From Eledone cirrhosa (taxonomy: Eukaryota), in contig OZ024741.1 in NCBI GenBank assembly GCA_964016885.1, forward strand, positions 186,248,001 through 186,312,000: 64,000 nt of DNA, in the 5' to 3' direction. Position numbers and translations under genes: made by a program. Positions 4,291 through 64,000 of the stretch are shown here, in pieces; position 1 is the stretch's first letter, and every line of letters begins with the position of its first letter. Under the pieces are notes generated by a model that saw only the letters and a list, made by a program, of their open reading frames with translations, was not told where the DNA came from and did no database searches.

Positions 4291-4342
<52 letters not shown>

Positions 4343-4350
<8 letters not shown>

Positions 4351-5068
4351 TACTTGTCCCCTCGCTTTACGCGAATTACTGGTCCCAATAACTTTTTTTA
4401 GTTATTGCTCGCACCAACCTGAGGTATCTGATTTTTAATGCGATGAAATACCAATGATGGTTGGAAAATCACTGACGAAGGACTATTTTTATCATATGTA
4501 ACCCATGTGCAAACCACGCAGTATTCTTCTTTCTTCTCATGTTTTTTTATATATATTTACCTCGGCTGCGTTTGTCTGTTTCTCTCTTACTGCTTCCCTG
4601 CTCTCTCTGTTTCTCTCACCTTCTTTCGCCCCCTCTGTCAGTTACACTTTCTCTCGACTGACCTCTTCCTCACACTTCCACTCACTCACTCTCTGTTTCT
4701 CCCCTTCTCACTTCCTCCCGTTTGGCTTGTGTGGGTCTCTTCTTGCTTACATCTCACACACATCGACACGGTCTCTACTTCTCTCGCTCATGAAATCCAC
4801 CCAGCTTATGCTGACCGGACAACCATGTTGCTTGTTTATTTTCCTATATTCGGTTTGTTTTTATCCTTCTATGTTGTTTACTTGTCCCCCTCGCTTTACG
4901 CGAATTCCCAATAACGTTTTTTATTTATTGCTCGCACCAACCTGAGGTATCTGATTTTTAATGCGATGAAATACCAATGACGGTTGGAAAATCACTGACG
5001 AAGGACTATTTTTATCATATGTAACCCATGTGCAAACCATGCAGTATTCTTCTTTCTTCTCATGTTTT
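4343..5068 (+). repeat. ORF-less partial tandem repeat, period about 528 nt, (TA)n-flanked
   Basis: 4343-4545 is repeated at 4871-5068; CTGACGA occurs once per unit; diverged relative at about 63560-63860. Confidence 0.7.
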
Positions 5069-5820
5069 ATATATATATATATATATTTGTTTTGCGAGGT
5101 TTTTTATATGAAGTCGTGTCGAAACAAATATTGTTATACTTGGGTAGGGTCATATTGTTGTAATAATATTGCCAGAATTAATAGCAGAACACACTCATTG
5201 TTTGGTTGGTTTTTTGCTTCTGTATCAGTTAATCCATTCGGTCTTCAATGTTGCCATTGACTGATCAACGGTCAAAAATAGAGATATAATATAGACACAA
5301 ACAACACATATATAGTCTAACAAAGTTCTTTCGTTGCACATCTTCAGCATCGTCAGTGGTGATATTATGTTCCTCATGTTGTATTGTATATCTACGCCAT
5401 TTTTATTTTATCTGTTTATTTATTTATTTTTGTTTTCTTCTTGTGCATGCGTTTGCGCGTGTGTATAGTGTTTACTGTGTGTTCGCGTTTGGGTGACTGT
5501 GTTTTGGTTATTGTATTCTATCTTAGTTTACTAGTGTGTGTTTATGTGTTTTTGTCATTGTGCTTGTGTATATATTTATTTATTTATTTATTTATATTTC
5601 TCTTATCAGTATTATTTGTTTGGGTGTTTTTGTTATTCCATTCATTTTTTCTGATTAGCTTTGGCCTTCTAAGTTCTATTTCACTTGGCCCTCTGATTTG
5701 CCTATCTGCTGGGTCATTTCTATGTTTAGATATTATTTTAATTTCTATGTTGTCTATGTTACCTTCATGTTGTTGTCTGTCTGGCGTATTCGTACAGTAC
5801 TGAACCGTTTTTTCGTCCTT

Positions 5821-6504
5821 TTAGTTCCCCCAATGTTGCTCTATCCTTTCAACTACGCTACGAGCTGTTTCGCCTATGTATGTTGTTGTCATGTTTCTGC
5901 AAGTACCCTCTGTACACCTTATGTTATAGACTACATTTCTAGTTTTACAGTTTATCCAGGGGTTTACTTTACATATAACACATTTCCTATTAGTACAGTG
6001 GGTTTTCTTAAAATGGTATGTTTTGCTGATCAGGGATTTTATGATAGTTCCTGGCTTTTCTACCACCTTAATCTTTAAGTGGGTCTTTCTCAGGGTCTTT
6101 CTACACTGGTTAGCTAATTTCCCTCCAGGGGTAGCGTCCATGAACATGACGCTCTGGTATGTCTGGTTGTCGTACCGTAAGGTGGCTTTCCCTATCCTAT
6201 GTTTAGTCCTATCTAAACTATTCCATGATTTGCTCCTGTATAATGGGCAAATTCCTTTCATGTGCAGTTCTATGAGGGTCTTATACTTCTCCGTGGCTCC
6301 TTCGTATACTCTGATTCTGTCTCTTTGGTTGTAGCCAGAGAACTGCATGCGGTTGATGAAGTGTTGGATGTGTCTTTCCATTTCTGTTGGGTCGCACAAG
6401 CGGTACACGTTCTTCATCACTCGTACCAAGTCTGCGATCAGAATATTAAACTTAGCACTACTGGACATTGCTGAGTTTTTGATTATCAGGTATTTGGAGG
6501 CCAT
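5821..6504 (-). pseudogene. Penelope-like element fragment: RT thumb plus C-terminal GIY-YIG endonuclease
   Basis: Translation includes HFINRMQFSGY, C-x4-C-x2-C..CKTRNVVYNIRC..C..YIGETARS..ERIEQH; 6516-6606 is a diverged inverted copy of about 6099-6189. Confidence 0.85.
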
Positions 6505-6665
6505 GGGTTTAGTGTAAAAGCCACCTCATGCAACGACAACCAGAGATACCAGAGCGTCATGTTCGTGGGCGCTACCCTTAGAGGGAAATTAGCTAACCAG
6601 TTTAGGGAGACGGGGTGGTCGAGCGTGGAGGGCTTAAGTTGGTGTGTGTGTATGTGTGTAGGTGT

Positions 6666-9146: not shown

Positions 9147-10798
9147 AGAGAGGTGTGTGCGTGTGTGGGGGGGGAGCGTGTGTGTGTGTATGTATATATA
9201 TTATATGTATATTTCGTTATCTGCAGGCAGGAATTTCAAAGAAAGGGTTTAATCTGATATGTATGATACGAATACTTCCGGTTCCGGTAGTCTCTATCAG
9301 ATAATTGTGAAATTACAGGTAATTCCATATCCGTTTATAGTGGCCATGAAATAAGAGTGATACGTAATGTCAAGTGTAGTGGTAGTGGTAGTGGTGTAAA
9401 TAATGGTGGATCTGGCCTCTGGTGGTCGGCAGTGTTTTTGTTTCGGGGAGGGGTGGGGGTGAATGTTGTCTAGCCGGACAGAAGTATGAGGTCGGAGTAA
9501 CAAAACACAGTCGCAGTCGGCCATTAGGAGTAAATCGATCTATATGATTAGCTCGCCTTCATGTCTTCAAACACAAAACGACAGACGAAAAAAATTGCTT
9601 TTGCCTCGATAAATATGTTCTCTAACTGTTAAATTACCTTTGTAATATTTTATTCTTTTTTTTTCCTTTTCGTTTTGTAATTATTGTTGTGTAATTCTTC
9701 ATTAACGCTTTATTTTTATCATTATATTAATATATCTTTTATTTCTCTTTTATTGCCTGTATATCTAGTGCGGAGAATAGCAATGTGGAACCTGGTTCGG
9801 GTTACATACATGAGAGGTCTCTCGCTCGCTGGAAATACAGTGTAAAATGGTAATATTGATTCAAATTGTTAAAACCGTAATGTATATGCTTGAAGACTAA
9901 GGAATATACACACAGAGATGCAAACACACAATGTATATATATATATATATATATACAAATGAATATATGAGAGGGATGAACACTGATACAAGTATACATG
10001 TGTTCGCATTGCAAATGACCATGTTAGCTAGGTCGAAAAATACTAATTTAATATAATATGGTTTGCCTGTCTCGATTTAAAATAATAAATCAATAAAAAT
10101 AATAAACCTATATTGGCAATGGCCGTGATACCCGGACAAATTCTAAATCTGTTTCGCAACAATTATTAAGTGAAGGTCACTATTCTGTGCTCTTGTGCGG
10201 GTATCCAGAAAATTAGTACCTTTGACTTCAAAATACTTAAGAAGACTGAGAGATATGTGTTGTTGAACGCAGATGTGTCACAGCGCCTAACCCATCCAAT
10301 ACTCGTGCTGCTAAAAATAGCAACTGATTTTATGGGACTAAAATTAGCTCTACGTATGGAGCCGAGAATATTATATATTGAGTTATAAACTCGAAATAGT
10401 CTTTTACAATTACATAGCTCAAACAATGGAATATTTCCCAGAGGTGTAATACAAATGAATATAAGGGGCTGCTTTCAGTTATTTGTCGGAGATTAAAATT
10501 GTAACCCAACAATTTTAAATAAAACTTTTGCACATATATATATATATATATCATGGCTGCAAACTCTATGATATATAATATTTATTCTTATAGCTTGGTC
10601 TAATTGATTTTTTATATGGTTAATTATACTAATTGTGAGAAGAAATGGTATATATTATATCTAGTGATTCTAAAGACATATTTTATAATATATAGCTCTG
10701 ATTATTTAATTTAATTTATTAATTTCTCATTGAGCCACAACGTAACCGGTTGCAAAACACATATATCTATGACTTTATATATATATATATGTAAATCT

Positions 10799-10861
<63 letters not shown>

Positions 10862-11043
10862 AATATTATATATCATAGAGTTTGCAGCCATGATATATAT
10901 ATATATATATGTGCAAAAGTTTTATTTAAAATTGTTGGGTTACAACAAGTAAATATTTTATAACTGATATAAAGCACTCGACAAGTTTTTGGAGTAGATA
11001 TACGATATTAAACAAATGGAAACTATATTTATAAAACCATATT

Positions 11044-14398: not shown

Positions 14399-14494
14399 GA
14401 CGTGTCTGAGGATCTTGCGATTTTCAGAGTCAGGTTCGATCATCACATCGATCGTGCCTCGAGCTGGTCGCCAGAGAAACGATTGTAATATGTC
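14399..14494 (+). ncRNA. Type I hammerhead ribozyme
   Basis: Stem I GACGTGT/ATATGTC; CTGAGGA 14406-14412; stem II TCT.GCGA/TCGC.AGA; GAAA 14476; CGATTG-TA; degenerate relative near 23540-23625. Confidence 0.7.
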
Positions 14495-23285: not shown

Positions 23286-23418
<133 letters not shown>

Positions 23419-23690
23419 TAAAGGTGCAAATTAATTGCTTCCTTAGGCGGTATGCTGAATGAGAACGCGATGCTCTTGGGGAGCAGAGTATCAATAATAT
23501 TAATATATAAGGGAACAAAGAATCATGATAACACATACATGAGGAGTTTCCGATTCCAGAGTCAGCTTCGATCATTAATCGATCGTTCCTCACGCTGATC
23601 ACAGTGAAACATATGTAATATGTAATTAAATATGTATATGATGCAACACTGATTCTTTGTTCACTTGTATATTAATATATATATATATAT

Positions 23691-24364
23691 CGTAATTTGA
23701 ACTCGGGAATTTTATATTCTCCGAGTGAAAAGTTCCTTCTGACGAGAGTTTATCTTTTCAATGGAAGGCCGCAAAGACTGTCCATTTATTTTTGAGACGC
23801 GAAACCGATTCGGTAAAGGTAACCATAGTAAGTACAGTGAATTTGTTGAAATTTATTTTGAAACTTTTTCTTATTTGCTAAATTTGATTATATATGTTCT
23901 GGCTCGTTAATTTATTAACCTGCCATTGAACCACATTGGCATATGTTTGGATAATACATGTGTCCCTATACGCTTTTTGCGTGTAGGGATATATACTTTA
24001 TTATTATTAGCTCCTCTTTGTCGAGATAAAATTCGGTCGTTTTGACTGCTGCTATTTATAGTGGTAGTAGACTGACCTCCCTGCCTCTGCTTCTATCTTC
24101 ACACACGGCACTGGACAGAATTGCTTCCACATCATTCTTTCTCATCTCGGGAACAATTTTGAATAGCGCTAGTTCGTAATTTGAACTCGGGAATTTTATA
24201 TTCTCCGAGTGAAAAGAACCTTCTGACGAGAGTTTATCTTTTCAATGGAAGGCCGCAATGACTGTCCATTTATTTTTGAGACTCGAAACTGTTTCGGTAA
24301 AGGTAACTATAGTAAGTACAGTGAATGTTTTGAAATTTATTTTGAAACTTTTTCTTATTTGCTA
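23691..24364 (+). mobile_element. ORF-less 1.4-mer tandem of a 484-nt HHR monomer (retrozyme-like)
   Basis: 23691-23880 repeated at 24175-24364; HHRs at 23735-23819 and 24218-24304. Confidence 0.8.
24218..24304 (+). ncRNA. Type I hammerhead ribozyme (sister copy 23735-23819)
   Basis: ACCTT-CTGACGA-GAGTTT..AATGGA/TCCATT..AGACTC-GAAA-CTG TTT CGG-TA-AAGGT. Confidence 0.8.
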
Positions 24365-26000
24365 AATAATAATATTACTTATAACTACATAGGTGCAACT
24401 TCATCGAACTTTAAACTGAGATTTTCCAATCATAAACATTCTTTTTCTAATCCGGATAAATAATGTTCTACTTCATTATCACAATTAATATGGTCTTTAA
24501 AAGAGAAAATTATAAAATACTCAATCTCTTGGATTAAACTTCGAAACTGTGAAGTATATCGGAACAATTCCATCTCACCTAACTGCAATCCTTGCAATCT
24601 AGAGATCTATTAATAATTGCTAATTATGGTAATTTAATTAATAAAAAAAGTGAATTATTTTCAAATTGCCTCCATAAATCTGCTAGAACATTTCAAGCAT
24701 CATATAAATTTAGGGAAAAAACATTGACTGAGTGTGAGAAGATATTGCTTTTTATTAATAATTCTTGTAATGCTACTATTAATATTATTATTATTATTGT
24801 TATTATTGGTATTATGTAAAATGTTTTACCTCACCTTAGGAAATGCATATCGGTTCTTTTATAGAGTAGGTTAATCTCTTGATTGATTAAATACCTTTAG
24901 TTTGGTTTTGAATCCTCTTTTTATGTTTTGAATTTTCTAAATTTGAGATCTGGAATACCTTCAGGCTTTCATACCTTTTAATTAATTTAAACATTTAGAT
25001 ATGTTGTACGGAGTTATTGTTTACATTTATCGTGTATAATTTTCGTTTTATCCAAATTGATTAATAATCTGTATTTAACTTGAATACAGTAAGATTTGGT
25101 TGAATCGAAATAATAATACTGTCAAGAGTAAATATAACTAATAATTAATCCTATATGTAATTGACAAATATTGATTTAAATAGTATTGTTTATAATATTT
25201 ATATTTCTAAACATTATATGAAATGCATATACAGATGCTAATATCCAAGTAAGTTATGTTAAACACTCATACTTATTTACTAAGCGTGTATGCATCATTG
25301 TTAGTTAATAATGTTTCTAACTTTTATTTTTATAACTAAATTATTGAATGTATTTATTAATTTAACTATGCTCCAGATTATCATTGAAAATATTTTATAT
25401 TATTTTATATTATCGTATATTGTTTAATTTTGATATAATATAATAGTATAATTTCTATCAAATACAATAGATTAAACATTTCCCGGTATTTAATTGATCG
25501 CTTCTACTTTTCTTTCTTTCTTTTCCGTATGCAATTATATATTCTACCATCTCTATCTCCCTCTCTTTGTTTTTATCTTCATCTCTTTATCTTTTTCCCT
25601 TTCTCTTCTATTTAGCTCTCTCTCTATCATTTGTTTTTTTTCTCTAATACGGATATTTACATATTTAAATATTTAAATATTTAACATTTATGTATTTATG
25701 TGTTTATGTAGTTATTGATTTTATTTATGTATTTATTTTTTCTACACTCTCTCTTACACACCCTCTACATTATATTTAGTTTGTCATGTTAGTACTTATG
25801 GTATATAAATATTGAGTTTTGTTGTAATTAATCACTGCCAAGACTGGATTTGAAACATCAGCACAGTTGAGATATGACATACAACAATTTATGTATTTTA
25901 TCTGATGAGGACGTACTGAAAAAACAGCACAGTACCTCCGAAATATACATAATAAAATATATTTTGATTACGTGAGCGTTACATTTATTAATATTTTGAA

Positions 26001-26005
<5 letters not shown>
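24365..26005 (+). mobile_element. 5'-truncated PLE: GIY-YIG remnant (about 24365-24720), long AT-rich 3' region, HHR, (TA)n
   Basis: YNYIGATSSNFKLRFSNHKHSF..STSLSQLIW..LINKKSELFSNCLHK. Confidence 0.78.
25894..25959 (+). ncRNA. Type I hammerhead ribozyme (relative at about 40113-40178, minus strand)
   Basis: 8-bp stem I TATTTTAT/ATAAAATA; CTGATGA 25902; stem II GGA.GTACTG/CAGTAC.TCC; GAAA 25940. Confidence 0.82.
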
Positions 26006-41332: not shown

Positions 41333-42052
41333 GTAAAAGTTATTGTCACAAGGATTGGTCAAAAGTGTGTTGTTGAGACACATAATTCTATCATGGCAAT
41401 TTGTGGAAGGAAGGGGTAGCTGAACCTGCCAGTAGAAGAAAGAGGGAGGGGGAGTGGAGAAAACCCAGTCGTGCGTTGATAGTGCCAACTACAGCAGGCC
41501 AGGAGGTCAAGCAAGTATACTAGGGAGGGGAGGGGGAGGGGGAGGAAGTCGAAACAATAAGTAAATCAATATGGAGTAAATATATAGAAGAATACCAAGA
41601 ATGTTAAAAATATAAAAAAAAAATTTCTGGTTACTATTCCCTAACCACAGTCATCAAGTCTCTCACTGGTACTGCTAAACTATAGAAAAGTTTACTAGGT
41701 GGGACGGAATTGTAGTGAAACCATTTTAAGAGTTAGTAGTAATCAACCGAGTATATCTTACAGTGACAGGTCAACAAGTGGGGGGCCAAAATACTAAAGA
41801 AACTACCACGAAATAATAATTCAGAGACCCGAAACTAATACGAAATGATTGTTTCTACCCTAGGCACGAGGATAGCAACCACCCAGTGCAAAAAATAAAC
41901 TAATACGAAATGATAATTCAGAATCTCGAAAATGAATACTAATACTATCTCTAAGGGTGCCGCTACGATACAAAAATTCTAGTACAAACTACATAAATGC
42001 TAGTACGAAGTATATGAAAAATTTGATACGGAAAATTAATTCAGAATAACCC

Positions 42053-42083
<31 letters not shown>

Positions 42084-44957
42084 AATACTGATATATGAGA
42101 AAGTAAAGCAGAGATACCACTAAGAGATGTAGAAAGCACGGAAATGGGGCAGCCATCGGATAAGAAAGCAAGTATCTGGGGTCTATCACATCTGCTATAA
42201 AAAGCGGAGTCGGCCAATTCTATCATAGAATAGGCGATGGGGGTGGGGGTACTGAGGCTACAAAGGACAGAGGGGCTGCCTCGGGTGGGCGAGAAAGTGA
42301 AAAGGACGACGACAAAGAATGAGGACTGGGGTGGAAGGACTAGGAAGGGATGGGGGAAGAAGGAAATATAGAGGAAACGATAAAAAGATATAAAAGAAGA
42401 TCTTACGTCTTCCTTTGTAAGCAGGGGTTACCCATTACAAAGTCGGCAAGTGGGGTGTTACAGCCCTTGTCTAACCCCCCCCCCCCGGTCATTATGGGGT
42501 TTGAGGGCGAGGTAAGTCCTACGCAATCTGTGATTGCATGCAGTTACCAGTTCATCTTTCTTGTTTAGGAGTTGGTCCGTCGAAAACAGCATTTGTAAAG
42601 TTTCCTCCGAGCATAAATTGCACGGACGGCGTCTTCCCGTGTAAGAGTTGGCTCTGGACAGTAATATTGTTATCTTTGAGGTCCCAGATGTGGCCCGAAA
42701 GTGTGGTGGCGTGCGCCGGGCCGGGTTTCGGAAAATATGTCTGTGTTGATATAGCTGGGTCTTGAAGTACCATGCGGTTAATCCTATATAAGCTTTGTTG
42801 GAGGTGTCTGTCCTCACGTTGCACTGGTAGATCACATTACGATCTCTGCATCTGTTGTGGAGGGGGAAAATTGATCCATCAGGACAGTTGCACCTCCTGG
42901 TCGGCTCTCCACTGCAATTTAGGTTATTTCTTTCATAGGGGTTGAGTTTTTTGTTATTAGAGGAGACGATGTTTTGTGCAAAGTTTGGTGTGGTGCTGTA
43001 GGAGAGTTTGATGGTATTTTTGTTGATTATGTTGTGGTAGCGGTGTTGTAGTGGGAAGTGTTTTTCGATGAGCCTAAAGAAGATTTTTCCCGATAGGAGT
43101 TGTCACCTCGGCGTTGTGGGGAGGATTGAACCATGTTACATTGCGTGAGCGGCGGTGTCGCCTGCTGGTTCCGCTAATGGAAGCTGGACAGTAGGATATT
43201 TCCTCCCGGAAGCCACTCCGCTTGAGGGCCTGGTTGTAATAAGGCGCATGTTCCTCGAATATCTGCTCATTAGCGGAAAAACGAGATATGCGGAGGGAGA
43301 TGTTTTTAACCAGGTTATTGGTGATGTTCCTAGGATGGTTTGACCGGCGGTGGATGTAGTGCAGGTTGTCGTTGGGTTTCCTGTATGGGTAGTACAGATC
43401 ATTATCGAGGTCAAGGGTAACGTCCAGGAAGTTTACTCAGGCCAGGGACGTTTGTAGGGTTATTTTAAATCCCCAGTCGCGGAAGAAGCTGATTAATTGT
43501 TTACGGACACGGTCTGTACTACTGGGGTTGTACCCTTTGAGGGTAAGGAGCCCATCATCACGGTACAACCCACCGCCGAATGCAGGAAACATATCGGTGA
43601 GTTTAACTAGTAGGAATAATCCTATAAGATCTGTGGCCTCAGCCGAATCCGTCGCGCCCATGCTGACGTCGCAGGGGGAGTCGGGAGCTCTCTTTATCCA
43701 TTTGTAGTTGTCGAAAAGTAGGACTGTCCTCCTGGCGTGGAGGATGATGTTTCTTTCCTGGTCGGTGATGGGCGCAAGTGTCTCGGCAAAGTCCAAGGCA
43801 GCCGTAAGTAACGGTAAGGTAATTGAAGCATAGTAACTCTCTATGTCAAACTGGATGAATTTTGTGTCTCGTTTGTCCTCCATATTGCTGAACCATGAGA
43901 TTACTTCGTGGGTGTTGACCCATAGGCTAAGTCTGGCGTTTTGCTTAACTTTTGGTATAACGCGTGCTTTCTACATCTCTTATTGGTATCTCTGCTTTAA
44001 TTTCTCGTATATCAGTATTTTTTTTTTTTTTTGAGGGGGGGGGGGGGGTTCTGAATTAATTTTCTGTATTATATTTTTTTCATATACTTCGTACTAGCAT
44101 TTATGTAGTTTGCACTAGAATTTTTGTATCGTAGCAGCACCCTTAGAGATAGTATTAGTATTCATTTTCGGGATTCTGAATTATTATTTCGTATTAGTTT
44201 ATTTTTTGCACTGGGTGGTTGCTGGCCTTGTGCCTAGGTTAGAAACAATCATTTCGTATTAGTTTCGGGTCTCTGAATTATTATTTCGTGGTAGTTTCTT
44301 TAGTATTTTGGCCCCCCACTTGTTGACCTGTCACTGTAAGATATACTCGGTTGATTACTACTAACTCTTAAAATGGTCTCACTACAATTCCGTCCCACCT
44401 AGTAAACTTTTCTATAGTTTAGCAGTACCAGTGAGAGACTTGATGACTGTGGTTACGGAATAGTAACCAGAAATTTTTTTTTTATATTTTTAACATTCTT
44501 GGTATTCTTCTATATATTTACTCCATATTGATTTACTTATTGTTTCGACTTCCCCCCCCCCTCCCTAGTATACTTGCTTGACCTCCTGCCCTGCTATAGT
44601 TGGCACTATCAATGCACGACTGGGTTTCGTCCACTCCCCCTCCCTCTTTCTTCTACTGGCAGGTTCAGCTACCCCTTCCTTCCACAAATTGCCATGATAG
44701 AATTATGTGTCTCAATAACAAACTTTTGACCAATCCTTGTGACAATCACTTTTACCATATATGGAATTACCCCCTGAGAAGCTGGGCTATTCATATACCA
44801 GGAAAAAAATGTTCATTTAGTCCAGAATTAGCCGTCGAAACGGCTTGAGCTCAGCCGTCGGGTTCCTACTCGTTCCTATTACCCACTCTACTACCCTAAG
44901 TATTGAGTACTTTGGTGCGTTATGGTCCATCTGGTTCCTTACCACATTTCCTTCGTT
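41333..44957 (-). mobile_element. Penelope-like element with about 800-bp inverted arms enclosing an RT-GIY-YIG remnant
   Basis: Arms 41333-42140 and 43963-44755; right arm continues into a degenerate HHR (44769-44864) and (TA)n. Confidence 0.88.
42430..43960 (-). pseudogene. PLE reverse transcriptase plus C-terminal GIY-YIG (frameshifted)
   Basis: FDIESYYASI, SMGATDSAE, GLYRDDGLL, FLDVTLDL, WFNPP, IYQC..YIGLT, CNLCSEE. Confidence 0.9.
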
Positions 44958-62516: not shown

Positions 62517-63441
62517 ATAATAAAAGTATGTGTTTCTACATGTAAATAATACACATAGGGATACAAGTATTGTCCAACCGTATGCCAGTGTGGTTCATTG
62601 GCAAGTTAATAAATTAACAAGCCAGAACATATAAAATCAAGAGAAAACAAATAGAGAAAGAAATTTAAAATAAATTTCAAAAAATTCACTGTACTTACTG
62701 TGTGTGCCTTTACCGCGGTTTCAAATCCCAAACATATAGACAATCCAAGCAGATTTCTATTGAGAAAGAGATCATCGTCAGAAGGCTTTTCTCACTCGGA
62801 GAATATAAAATTCCCGAGTTCAAATTACAGACTGACGCCATATAAAACTGTTCCAGAATGAGAGTGAATGAATGATGAAACAATTTTGCCTACTAGCGTG
62901 TGCAAAGACAGAAAGCGAGGTGGACAGTTCAATCCCGTGCTACTAAAAATAGCAGACGTTCAAACGACCGAAGGTTTCTCTACCGCTGGAGAGAATAATA
63001 ATAAAAGTATGTGTTCCTACATGTAAATAATACACATATGGATACAAGTATTGTCCGACTGTAAGCCAGTGTGGTTCAATGGCAAGTTAATAAATTAACA
63101 AGCCAGAAGATATAAAATCAAGGGAAAGCAAATAGAGAACAAATTTTTTAATAAATTTCAAAAAATTCACTGTACTTAATATGTGTGCCTTTACCGCGGT
63201 TTCAAATCCCAAACATTCTGGAACAGTTTTGTATGGCACCAGTCTGTAATTTGAACTCCGGTATTTTATATTCTCCGAGTGAGAAAAGCCTTCTGACGAT
63301 GCTCTCTTTCTCAATGGAAATCCGCTTGGATTGTCTATTTGTTTGGGATTTGAAACCGCGGTAAAGGCACTCATAGTAAGTACAGTGAATTTTTTGAAAT
63401 TTATTTTAAAATTTTTTCTCTACTTGCTTTCCCTTGATTTT
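62517..63441. mobile_element. ORF-less 481-nt HHR monomer in partial tandem (minus) plus inverted arm (plus)
   Basis: 62520-62735 repeated at 63001-63216; inverted segment 63214-63441; HHRs 62706-62786 minus and 63288-63368 plus; homologous to 23691-24364. Confidence 0.82.
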
Positions 63442-64000
63442 GGCCTCTTAACTTATGTTGTTGCTCTAGTTCACTAGCTTCTATGCTCGCCACACATCTC
63501 GCAAGTTGTTTTTCGCTAATTTCCAATAGCCGAAATACGATTCTCGCTAATTTATATATATGCGTCGAAATACCAACGATAATCAGCAGACTACTGATGA
63601 GGACATTTTATCTCTTGGTCTATGTTTATTCATATGTTCATGTTCGCAACAACGGAGCACGCCATTCTTCATTCACATATTTTGTCCCTTCGCTGTGGTT
63701 CGTATTTTTTCTGTCCCCTTACTGCTATCACCTTTTCTTTCTCCTTCACCTCTTGCTTTCCTCAAATCCCGCTGCTTGTCACTCACTCTCGGCTGGTCCC
63801 TTCCTCACACTTTCACTCACACCCCCTCTCTCACTTCCTCCCGTCTGACCTGCTTGAATTTCTTTCCTCTCTCAATCTTTTCGCGGCTCGGACGTGTCTA
63901 TTTCTCCTCGTCAATTTGATTTGTTGGACTTAAGCCCACAGGATTCATTGACTTGTCTCTATTTTCCTCTCTTTACGTTGCATTACTACCATGTGTTTGT

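What the first reader, a model, noticed from the sequence alone, without database searches (positions are those of the whole stretch)
23691..24364. ORF-less 484-nt monomer, one HHR per unit, with different end points at two loci: candidate circular retrozyme
Seen: a 1.4-mer tandem here (period 484) and a diverged homologue at 62517-63216 (period 481) begin and end at different points of the same non-coding unit. A hairpin ACTCGG..CCGAGT sits just upstream of the HHR at both loci. Established: non-LTR retrozymes are tandem HHR repeats that yield circular RNAs. Inference: reverse transcription around a circle or multimer by a PLE RT in trans. The unit is larger than the few-hundred-nt metazoan retrozymes I recall.
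Basis: partly seen in the sequence, partly recalled or inferred. Interest (0 to 1): 0.75.

Follow-up and report, generated by a model that had tools for sequence, protein, structure and literature searches.

The report
Hammerhead retrozyme hitchhiking on Hydra retrotransposons
This is one of roughly a thousand copies of a 484-base protein-free repeat with a predicted self-cutting RNA fold; its copies end at two fixed sites marked by the same small hairpin as this genome's Hydra-type jumping genes, so it is likely copied by their enzyme, probably from a circular RNA that nobody has yet observed.

Summary
In detail: an ORF-less 484-nt unit (481 nt at locus 2, 75% alike) carries one type I hammerhead fold with a 52-55-nt stem II. 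The 'circularly permuted ends' reading needs correcting. Across 82 loci, 96 of 115 arms end 3' at two fixed sites about 110 nt apart, next to (TA)n, not at the ribozyme cut; 5' ends scatter. Back-to-back insertions pair one of each end (19 of 20). Each end lies just before a bulged hairpin that also follows the ends of autonomous Hydra-clade Penelope elements here, but not of a Neptune-like one. Repeats within one insertion share a haplotype (152 of 159 sites, 84 expected) and cross the cut site without scars. So one unit-length RNA is likely copied more than once round by a Hydra enzyme. Circle about 60%; uncut, terminally redundant linear RNA about 30%. No RNA data were found. The size is not unusual (published 51-972 bp). 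This is a new family of known animal non-LTR retrozymes. This scan reported the same footprint and hairpin for other families in this genome.

The parts
23691..24364 (+). Subfamily A insertion, 1.4 units of a 484-nt non-coding unit (unit position 1 = 23691); 5' flank is (TA)n
23701..23726 (+). Stable hairpin ACTCGG..CCGAGT, 8 nt upstream of hammerhead stem I; role unknown
   Evidence: (z -4.0)
23735..23819 (+). Type I hammerhead fold 1: 4-bp stem I, CUGACGA core, 55-nt two-part stem II, GAAA, short stem III, predicted cut after 23815; this copy has a change next to the base of stem II
23886..23895 (+). End site E1 (unit position 205), the commonest 3' end of copies genome-wide (43 of 71 A arms)
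23896..23931 (+). Bulged hairpin 1 (4-bp outer stem, 2-nt 3' bulge, inner stem) directly after E1; predicted start signal for reverse transcription
23995..24007 (+). End site E2 (unit position about 314-317; 21 of 71 A arms); E1-E2 interval is a tail of about 110 nt
24010..24026 (+). Bulged hairpin 2 after E2 (slightly decayed in this copy)
24185..24210 (+). Second copy of the upstream hairpin
24219..24303 (+). Type I hammerhead fold 2, predicted cut after 24299
24364..26003 (+). 5'-truncated Hydra-clade PLE (endonuclease end, 3' UTR, minimal hammerhead at 25902, ends at its own E1 before (TA)n), fused to the unit 12-15 nt short of E1 with 3-4 nt microhomology and no TA spacer
62517..63216 (-). 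Subfamily B long arm, 1.45 units of 481 nt, 3' end at E2 beside (TA)n
62707..62785 (-). Hammerhead fold of the B long arm: U.U at the base of a 52-nt stem II, palindromic CCGCGG stem III
62593..62628 (-). Bulged hairpin 1 of subfamily B, directly after its E1
63214..63441 (+). Subfamily B inverted short arm (unit 451 to 197, ending 4 nt short of E1), with hammerhead fold at 63289-63367
63442..63560 (+). 119-nt 3' piece of another (TA)n-ending repeat family, fused to the short arm with 3-nt microhomology and no TA spacer

Best explanation
A protein-free 484-nt repeat with a predicted type I hammerhead is dispersed through the genome with two fixed 3' ends, and is likely copied in trans by the reverse transcriptase/endonuclease of Hydra-clade Penelope-like elements from a single unit-length RNA that is probably circular. 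Steps: (1, inferred) a genomic copy with two hammerheads is transcribed, cuts itself twice at GUA, and the monomer is closed by a host ligase as shown for coral, mussel and axolotl retrozymes; (2, shown as a footprint) insertion is into (TA)n; (3, footprint shown, mechanism inferred) both DNA ends at the break prime reverse transcription internally, one just before bulged hairpin 1 (E1) and one just before hairpin 2 (E2), giving head-to-head arms with one short and one long end; (4, footprint shown) synthesis passes the ribozyme site without a scar, falls off at scattered places, and faster in the second turn; copies that span two hammerheads can seed the next cycle.
For: Ends: 64 of 71 A arms and 32 of 44 B arms end at E1 or E2. 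Inverted pairs with both ends classifiable: E1+E2 in 12 of 13 (A) and 7 of 7 (B); p 0.0004 and 0.006 against independent choice. Two internal start sites explain the PLE tail in vitro (PMC11167929). Hairpin: found 1-6 nt after both ends in A and B (the only 2 descriptor hits in B; 2 of 5 in A), and after both ends of an autonomous 784-aa Hydra-type element, where 40 of 47 TA-flanked ends fall at those two sites; chance about 1.4% per 10-nt window. Not found after the first end of a Neptune-like family in the 5 of 11 copies that extend past it, apart from one hit spanning a TA run. Clade: the 784-aa ORF has RWR, DKT, CxCX5C, CxxC and CxH motifs matching the Hydra definition. Single template: repeats within an insertion agree at 152 of 159 polymorphic locus-sites (84 expected) in A and 332 of 363 (204) in B; shared non-consensus alleles 110 vs 25 (tandem) and 47 vs 12 (inverted arms), 0 of 500 permutations reach them; no site differs between first and last turn (best p 0.047 of 411 tests). 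Cut site: no gap in 96 A and 61 B copies; 95 crossings against 1 of 71 5' ends within 122-130. Structure kept between A and B: 20 of 28 changed pairs still pair (14 expected, p 0.004).
Against: No transcript, cleavage or circle has been seen. Arrays are short: 3 of 115 arms exceed two units, and the mean run falls from about 360 nt in the first turn to about 100 nt in the second, which fits a finite linear template as well as strand displacement on a circle. In the one PLE tested in vitro, hammerhead cleavage was not needed and uncut RNA was the main substrate (PMC11167929). 8 of 9 predicted Xenopus retrozyme dimers did not cleave. Isolated hammerhead segments do not fold better than shuffles (z -0.3 to 1.0); in B the active fold is 4 kcal/mol above the minimum; stem I is only 4 bp; core conservation is weak evidence (recurrent variants at 1 of 12 and 0 of 12 core sites versus 34 of 484 and 94 of 481). 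No Hydra family with sequence similarity to the unit was found among 63 PLE loci from three families. The hairpin descriptor was built after a lead from earlier scan notes, and only 1 of 3 extended copies of a second Hydra family passes it strictly.
Confidence: 0.6

Rival explanations
1. Same non-autonomous Hydra-dependent element, but the template is a linear, uncut, terminally redundant RNA of about 1.5 units; extra turns come from read-through of tandem source loci or homology-guided strand transfer between the redundant ends. The hammerhead would be a passenger or act later.
For: Uncut RNA is the dominant substrate of Poseidon_Ac in vitro. Most arms are under 1.6 units and stop quickly in the second turn. 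Autonomous Hydra copies also form seamless tandems. Strand transfer on one RNA would also give one haplotype and no scar.
Against: No fixed 5' end: 34 arms of 23 loci chosen by their 3' part spread 6,6,3,4,3,4,3,5 over eight bins of the unit. No fixed differences between first and last turn, as aged linear masters would pass on. E1-ended copies lack hairpin 1 behind their last E1, so they could regenerate full copies only through a circle or a transfer step (inference).
Confidence: 0.3
2. The unit is the pseudo-LTR of an autonomous PLE not sampled here, and the copies are its truncated ends.
For: Same target, tail, inversions and hairpins as Hydra elements; 23 of 82 loci have PLE ORF pieces within the 1.5-kb flanks. 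Only the best 40 candidates per search were scored.
Against: Units follow each other head to tail for up to 3.16 turns without an ORF; in 0 of 82 loci does an ORF end lead into the unit in the same orientation, and none of the same-strand ORF hits downstream of an arm is an ORF start contiguous with the unit.
Confidence: 0.05
3. DNA-level satellite: copies spread by recombination or replication slippage and are homogenised by gene conversion; the hammerhead is a relic.
For: Proposed for local amplification of retrozyme arrays in the 2026 preprint; conversion could explain shared alleles.
Against: Copies are dispersed on many contigs, short, 5'-truncated, (TA)n-flanked, with two fixed 3' ends and paired inverted arms; repeats within a locus still differ by 3.3% (A), so they are not being homogenised now.
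Confidence: 0.03

Closest known systems
Animal non-LTR retrozymes (Cervera and de la Pena 2020, PMC7229834; Li, Clavereau and Pollet 2026, bioRxiv 10.64898/2026.07.22.740005)
   Same: ORF-less tandem unit, one type I hammerhead per unit, low GC, structured monomer, co-existing PLEs. Subfamily B has a U.U pair at the base of stem II like axolotl HHR_Amex2 and a palindromic stem III like HHR_Amex1. Length inside the 51-972 bp range of the preprint.
   Different: Stem II is 52-55 nt and Rfam misses the motif; arrays are 0.2-3.2 units and dispersed, often two-armed; two fixed internal 3' ends with a hairpin signal are not described in the parts of these papers that I read; RNA is untested here.
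Hydra clade of C-terminal-endonuclease PLEs (Craig et al. 2021, PMC8557442; includes Hydra-1_Obim)
   Same: (TA)n target, hammerhead near the 3' end, 5' truncation, partial tandems, inverted 5' copy, one-sided tail; in this genome also the bulged hairpins behind the end sites.
   Different: No ORF; tail about 110 nt rather than the 30-40 bp given for PLEs (83 nt in the autonomous Hydra family examined); no sequence similarity found to the three PLE families sampled.
Poseidon_Ac internal initiation (Frangieh et al. 2024, PMC11167929)
   Same: Two internal start sites, both target strands extended, tail equal to the interval between the sites, starts away from the hammerhead cut.
   Different: There no difference in start site between strands was seen and the start lies in an AC-rich stem-loop; here the two ends of one insertion nearly always use different sites, each just 5' of a bulged hairpin.
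Non-autonomous Chlamys PLEs such as MRC1 (PMC8557442, passage)
   Same: Non-coding, pLTR-forming, often head-to-tail, moved by a PLE.
   Different: They share 3' sequence with their autonomous partner and belong to a mostly hammerhead-less clade.

Membership tests
Animal non-LTR retrozyme | Tandem non-coding unit without LTR, PBS or ORF | tested here: met
   Periods 484/481; longest frame 61-68 codons
Animal non-LTR retrozyme | Type I hammerhead motif in each unit | tested here: met
   Core, three stems and GUA present; core intact in 69 of 83 A and 31 of 45 B copies; not detected by Rfam
Animal non-LTR retrozyme | At least two consecutive complete hammerheads in some copies | tested here: met
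   Window locus 1 has two; L003 spans 3.16 units
Animal non-LTR retrozyme | Self-cleavage in vitro | not testable with these tools
   Only folding energies: active fold equals the minimum in A, 4 kcal/mol above it in B
Animal non-LTR retrozyme | Monomeric linear and circular RNA in vivo | not testable with these tools
   No raw RNA reads were available to lay on the locus
Animal non-LTR retrozyme | Highly self-paired monomer | tested here: met
   Circular fold z -5.3 (A), -5.2 (B) on 30 shuffles, reverse strands -4.1 and -2.5; 20 of 28 changed pairs kept
Autonomous PLE pseudo-LTR | Attached to an RT plus GIY-YIG ORF | tested here: not met
   0 of 82 loci with an ORF leading into the unit; one fusion of the unit's 3' end to an ORF fragment
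PLE-mobilised element | 5' truncation, fixed 3' ends with optional tail, inverted 5' copy, microsatellite target | tested here: met
Passenger of Hydra-clade PLEs | Shares the end signal of Hydra elements and not of other clades | tested here: met
   Bulged hairpin after ends in A, B and one Hydra family, partly in a second; absent in one Neptune-like family; only one control clade tested
Passenger of Hydra-clade PLEs | Sequence homology to the partner's terminal region | tested here: inconclusive
   No hit to the PLE parts of 63 loci from three families; many more families exist in the genome
Plant LTR retrozyme | LTRs with type III hammerhead, PBS/PPT, 4-bp TSD | tested here: not met
   Type I topology, tandem unit, (TA)n flanks

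The most novel reading that the evidence does not exclude
A 484-nt circular ribozyme RNA parasitises a telomerase-related reverse transcriptase by RNA shape alone: two bulged hairpins mimic the Hydra start signal, a dimeric enzyme primes one DNA end at each hairpin on one circle, rolls past the ligated ribozyme site, and sometimes switches from its own mRNA onto the circle, as the Hydra-retrozyme fusion at 24364 would record. This would be direct genomic evidence for the proposed PLE-driven retrozyme life cycle and would name the signal that sets PLE start sites.
Probability: 0.4. Interest if true: 0.72.

Novelty: new member of a known kind. Interest (0 to 1): 0.45.

Why it matters
That PLEs move animal retrozymes has been proposed from co-occurrence and pLTR similarity but, in the papers read here, not shown. 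This family gives a defined, testable system: a short RNA, two predicted start sites, a candidate structural signal and a clade of partner enzymes with intact ORFs in the same genome. It bears on how PLE tails and tandems arise and on whether a reverse transcriptase copies RNA circles into chromosomes. The class is known and the scan has met the same footprint in many sister families, so this family adds replication more than surprise.

Tried and rejected
No RNA holder listed. Laying the three listed runs (contigs of one sample, type not on record, possibly the source) showed loose ends at E1 and E2 but is not independent and says nothing on expression. Rfam: no hammerhead in the 150 of 238 rows shown for the window or among 3 rows for the locus. 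Pfam gave only sub-threshold RVT_1 and GIY-YIG hits for 2 of 6 window ORF pieces; clades were assigned from motifs instead. Direct search for the autonomous parent: three PLE families sampled, no homology; a weak hit led to another non-coding family instead. Fold-back second-strand synthesis as the source of inverted arms: rejected because the two arms often carry parts of the unit that the other lacks. Ends at the ribozyme cut: rejected. The ACTCGG hairpin as a third start signal: it fits the descriptor in an alternative fold in A but only 1 of 115 arms ends before it; an excess of 5' ends just behind it (10 vs 4) is confounded by how the B set was chosen. Age test of the locus-1 fusion: private alleles 7 of 670 (repeat) vs 29 of 1614 (Hydra piece), p 0.27, inconclusive. 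Paper searches found no report of this family or of the hairpin signal; the library lacks most subscription journals, and the bioRxiv supplements (retrozyme family tables) could not be seen.

Full report
Observation. The tandem at 23691-24364 has period 484 (181 of 190 overlapping bases match) and the minus-strand homologue at 62517-63216 has period 481 (203 of 219); they are 75% identical over 583 nt. I call them subfamilies A and B, with unit position 1 at 23691. Each unit has the ACTCGG hairpin (z -4.0), then a type I hammerhead fold with a 4-bp stem I, CUGACGA, a 55-nt (A) or 52-nt (B) stem II, GAAA, a short stem III and a GUA site at position 125 or 119. Rfam did not report it. The longest stop-to-stop frame is 61-68 codons. 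The host looks like an octopus-type mollusc (3.0 Gb, TA-rich, Hydra ORFs resembling Hydra-1_Obim by eye); this is inference.

Abundance. Exact matches to short hammerhead patterns number 350 (A) and 113 (B), with 0 for reversed controls. In my loci 44 of 84 A copies and 15 of 53 B copies match those patterns exactly, which gives about 670 and 400 hammerhead copies, a rough lower estimate. Median divergence from consensus is 2.5% (A) and 6.5% (B).

Ends. I fetched 60 A loci (30 by the whole unit, 30 by an 80-nt piece before the commonest end; 8 duplicates dropped) and 30 B loci; each search scored only its best 40 candidates. Of 71 A arms, 43 end at position 205 (E1), 21 near 314 (E2) and 7 elsewhere; of 44 B arms 19, 13 and 12. 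E1 and E2 ends nearly all abut (TA)n. 5' ends scatter: 6,6,3,4,3,4,3,5 over eight bins for the 34 arms of the 23 loci chosen by their 3' part. So the two window loci do not show free permutation: locus 2's long arm ends at E2, and locus 1 stops 12-15 nt short of E1 at a fusion. There are 17 A and 12 B head-to-head arm pairs; 9 have an unclassified end, and of the other 20, 19 pair E1 with E2 (p 0.0004 and 0.006). PLEs are known to have partial tandems, inverted 5' copies and a one-sided 30-40-bp tail (PMC8557442, passages), and the tail equals the interval between two internal start sites in vitro (PMC11167929, abstract and main text read). The footprint is therefore that of a PLE enzyme, with a 110-nt tail.

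Which enzyme. Earlier scan notes suggested a bulged hairpin behind the ends of Hydra-clade elements, and I tested this. A descriptor (4-bp outer stem with YUC/GAR, 2-nt 3' bulge, inner stem) hits B only twice, 1 and 4 nt after E1 and E2, and A five times, including 1 and 6 nt after them; shuffles give about 1.4% per 10-nt window. An autonomous element in this genome with a 784-aa ORF in 3528-bp tandems has RWR, DKT, CxCX5C, CxxC and CxH motifs, matching the Hydra definition (section 11 of PMC8557442). 40 of its 47 TA-flanked ends fall at two sites 83 nt apart, each followed by the hairpin. A second Hydra family has the outer stem and bulge after E1 in 3 of 3 extended copies, though only 1 passes strictly; a Neptune-like family also has two ends but no such hairpin in the 5 of 11 copies that extend past the first, apart from one hit across a TA run. 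No sequence similarity was found between the unit and the PLE parts of 63 loci from three families, so the partner is placed to clade only.

Not a pseudo-LTR. 23 of 82 loci have PLE ORF pieces in their flanks, as expected for a shared (TA)n niche, but none leads into the unit in the same orientation, and arrays run to 3.16 units without an ORF.

Template. Repeats inside one insertion share a haplotype: 152 of 159 polymorphic locus-sites agree in A (84 expected) and 332 of 363 in B (204). Shared non-consensus alleles exceed all 500 permutations for both tandem turns and inverted arms, and no site differs systematically between first and last turn. The cut site is crossed 95 times in A, 1 of 71 5' ends lies within 122-130, and no copy has a gap there (96 A, 61 B). 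A cut linear monomer is therefore not the usual template; the RNA is either closed or uncut, and both arms and all turns come from one unit-length source. Against an endless roll: only 3 of 115 arms exceed two units, and the mean run drops from 364 nt (249-558) in the first turn to 98 and 103 nt in the second for the whole-unit sets (190 nt, 100-416, in the 3'-chosen set). That fits strand displacement after one turn of a circle, but also a linear RNA of about 1.5 units. DNA alone cannot separate a circle from homology-guided transfer on a redundant linear RNA. I give the circle 0.6 because retrozyme circles are documented in coral, mussel and axolotl (PMC7229834, parts 2-4 of 6 read), the unit folds as a conserved structure (z -5.3 and -5.2; 20 of 28 changed pairs kept, p 0.004) and there is no fixed 5' end. 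I give the uncut linear RNA 0.3 because cleavage was dispensable for Poseidon_Ac and 8 of 9 Xenopus dimers did not cleave (preprint, parts 1-3 of 5 read). Evidence that this hammerhead is active is modest: core divergence is 1.8% vs 3.0% (A) and 4.0% vs 7.6% (B), the active fold equals the minimum in A but not in B, and the isolated segments do not beat shuffles.

Fusions. Locus 1 runs without a TA spacer into a 1.64-kb 5'-truncated Hydra element on the same strand, with 3-4 nt of microhomology. Locus 2's short arm stops 4 nt short of E1 and runs into the last 119 nt of another TA-ending family with 3 nt of microhomology. A template switch from the downstream element's RNA to the retrozyme near E1 would explain both and would tie a Hydra enzyme to this RNA in one event. 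Later insertion into the TA run with loss of the spacer, or a deletion, explains them equally; ages are compatible but uninformative (p 0.27). I put it at about even.

Known and new. Non-LTR retrozymes, their proposed PLE dependence and lengths up to 972 bp are in print. Searches found no paper on this family, on paired use of the two ends, or on the hairpin; the library is incomplete and the preprint's supplements were not visible. This scan's notes describe the same footprint for several other families in this genome, none matching this sequence; they are leads, not support. Verdict: a real, new family of a known kind, with an unusually clear and testable mechanism footprint. Interest 0.45.

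Noticed in passing
window 63561-64000 and L031 2060-2700; related copy at window 4340-5070: Another tandem family of about 520-535 nt without an obvious ORF, with two preferred 3' ends 45 nt apart. It has GAAA upstream of CUGAUGA but no canonical hammerhead that I could build, and no bulged hairpin, so it may ride a different PLE clade.
   Followed up: partly
window 10553-10893; L177-L200: A roughly 670-nt non-coding family with a long-stem-II hammerhead fold (CCATGG stem III), two ends, both bulged hairpins, and a 29-nt stretch 86% alike to the tail of the unit studied here.
   Followed up: partly
L143 (G000:C2:51275500-51283500); window 41333-44755: Young autonomous Hydra-type element with intact 784-aa ORFs in 3528-bp tandems; by eye its hammerhead has a U3:A8 variant core, a long stem II and a long stem III, which a CUGANGA scan misses.
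   Followed up: partly
window 5821-6525; L146-L160: Neptune-like PLE family with two 3' ends about 45 nt apart and a hammerhead-like core about 240 nt upstream.
   Followed up: partly
window 11101, 13743, 14061, 25902, 27772, 27928, 33036, 37892, 40170, 49464, 61570, 61685: Many further CUGANGA motifs, most with GAAA and short palindromic stem III, at ends of other TA-flanked elements.
   Followed up: no
window 23417-23680 and 14400-14490: Related elements with a possible very long stem II hammerhead, one directly upstream of the finding.
   Followed up: no
L031 4080-6290: Tandem and inverted copies of a roughly 466-nt hammerhead-bearing repeat just beyond the window end.
   Followed up: no
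unit positions 124-133 with 400-409: In the predicted circular fold the 3' strand of stem I pairs with a distant segment, which would block the ribozyme in the circle as in viroids and plant retrozymes (prediction only).
   Followed up: no
PMC8557442 supplement, record printed just before Hydra-1_Obim: By eye, that Hydra consensus also has a GCUC-hairpin-UU-GAGC stem shortly after its hammerhead, hinting that the signal extends beyond this genome.
   Followed up: no
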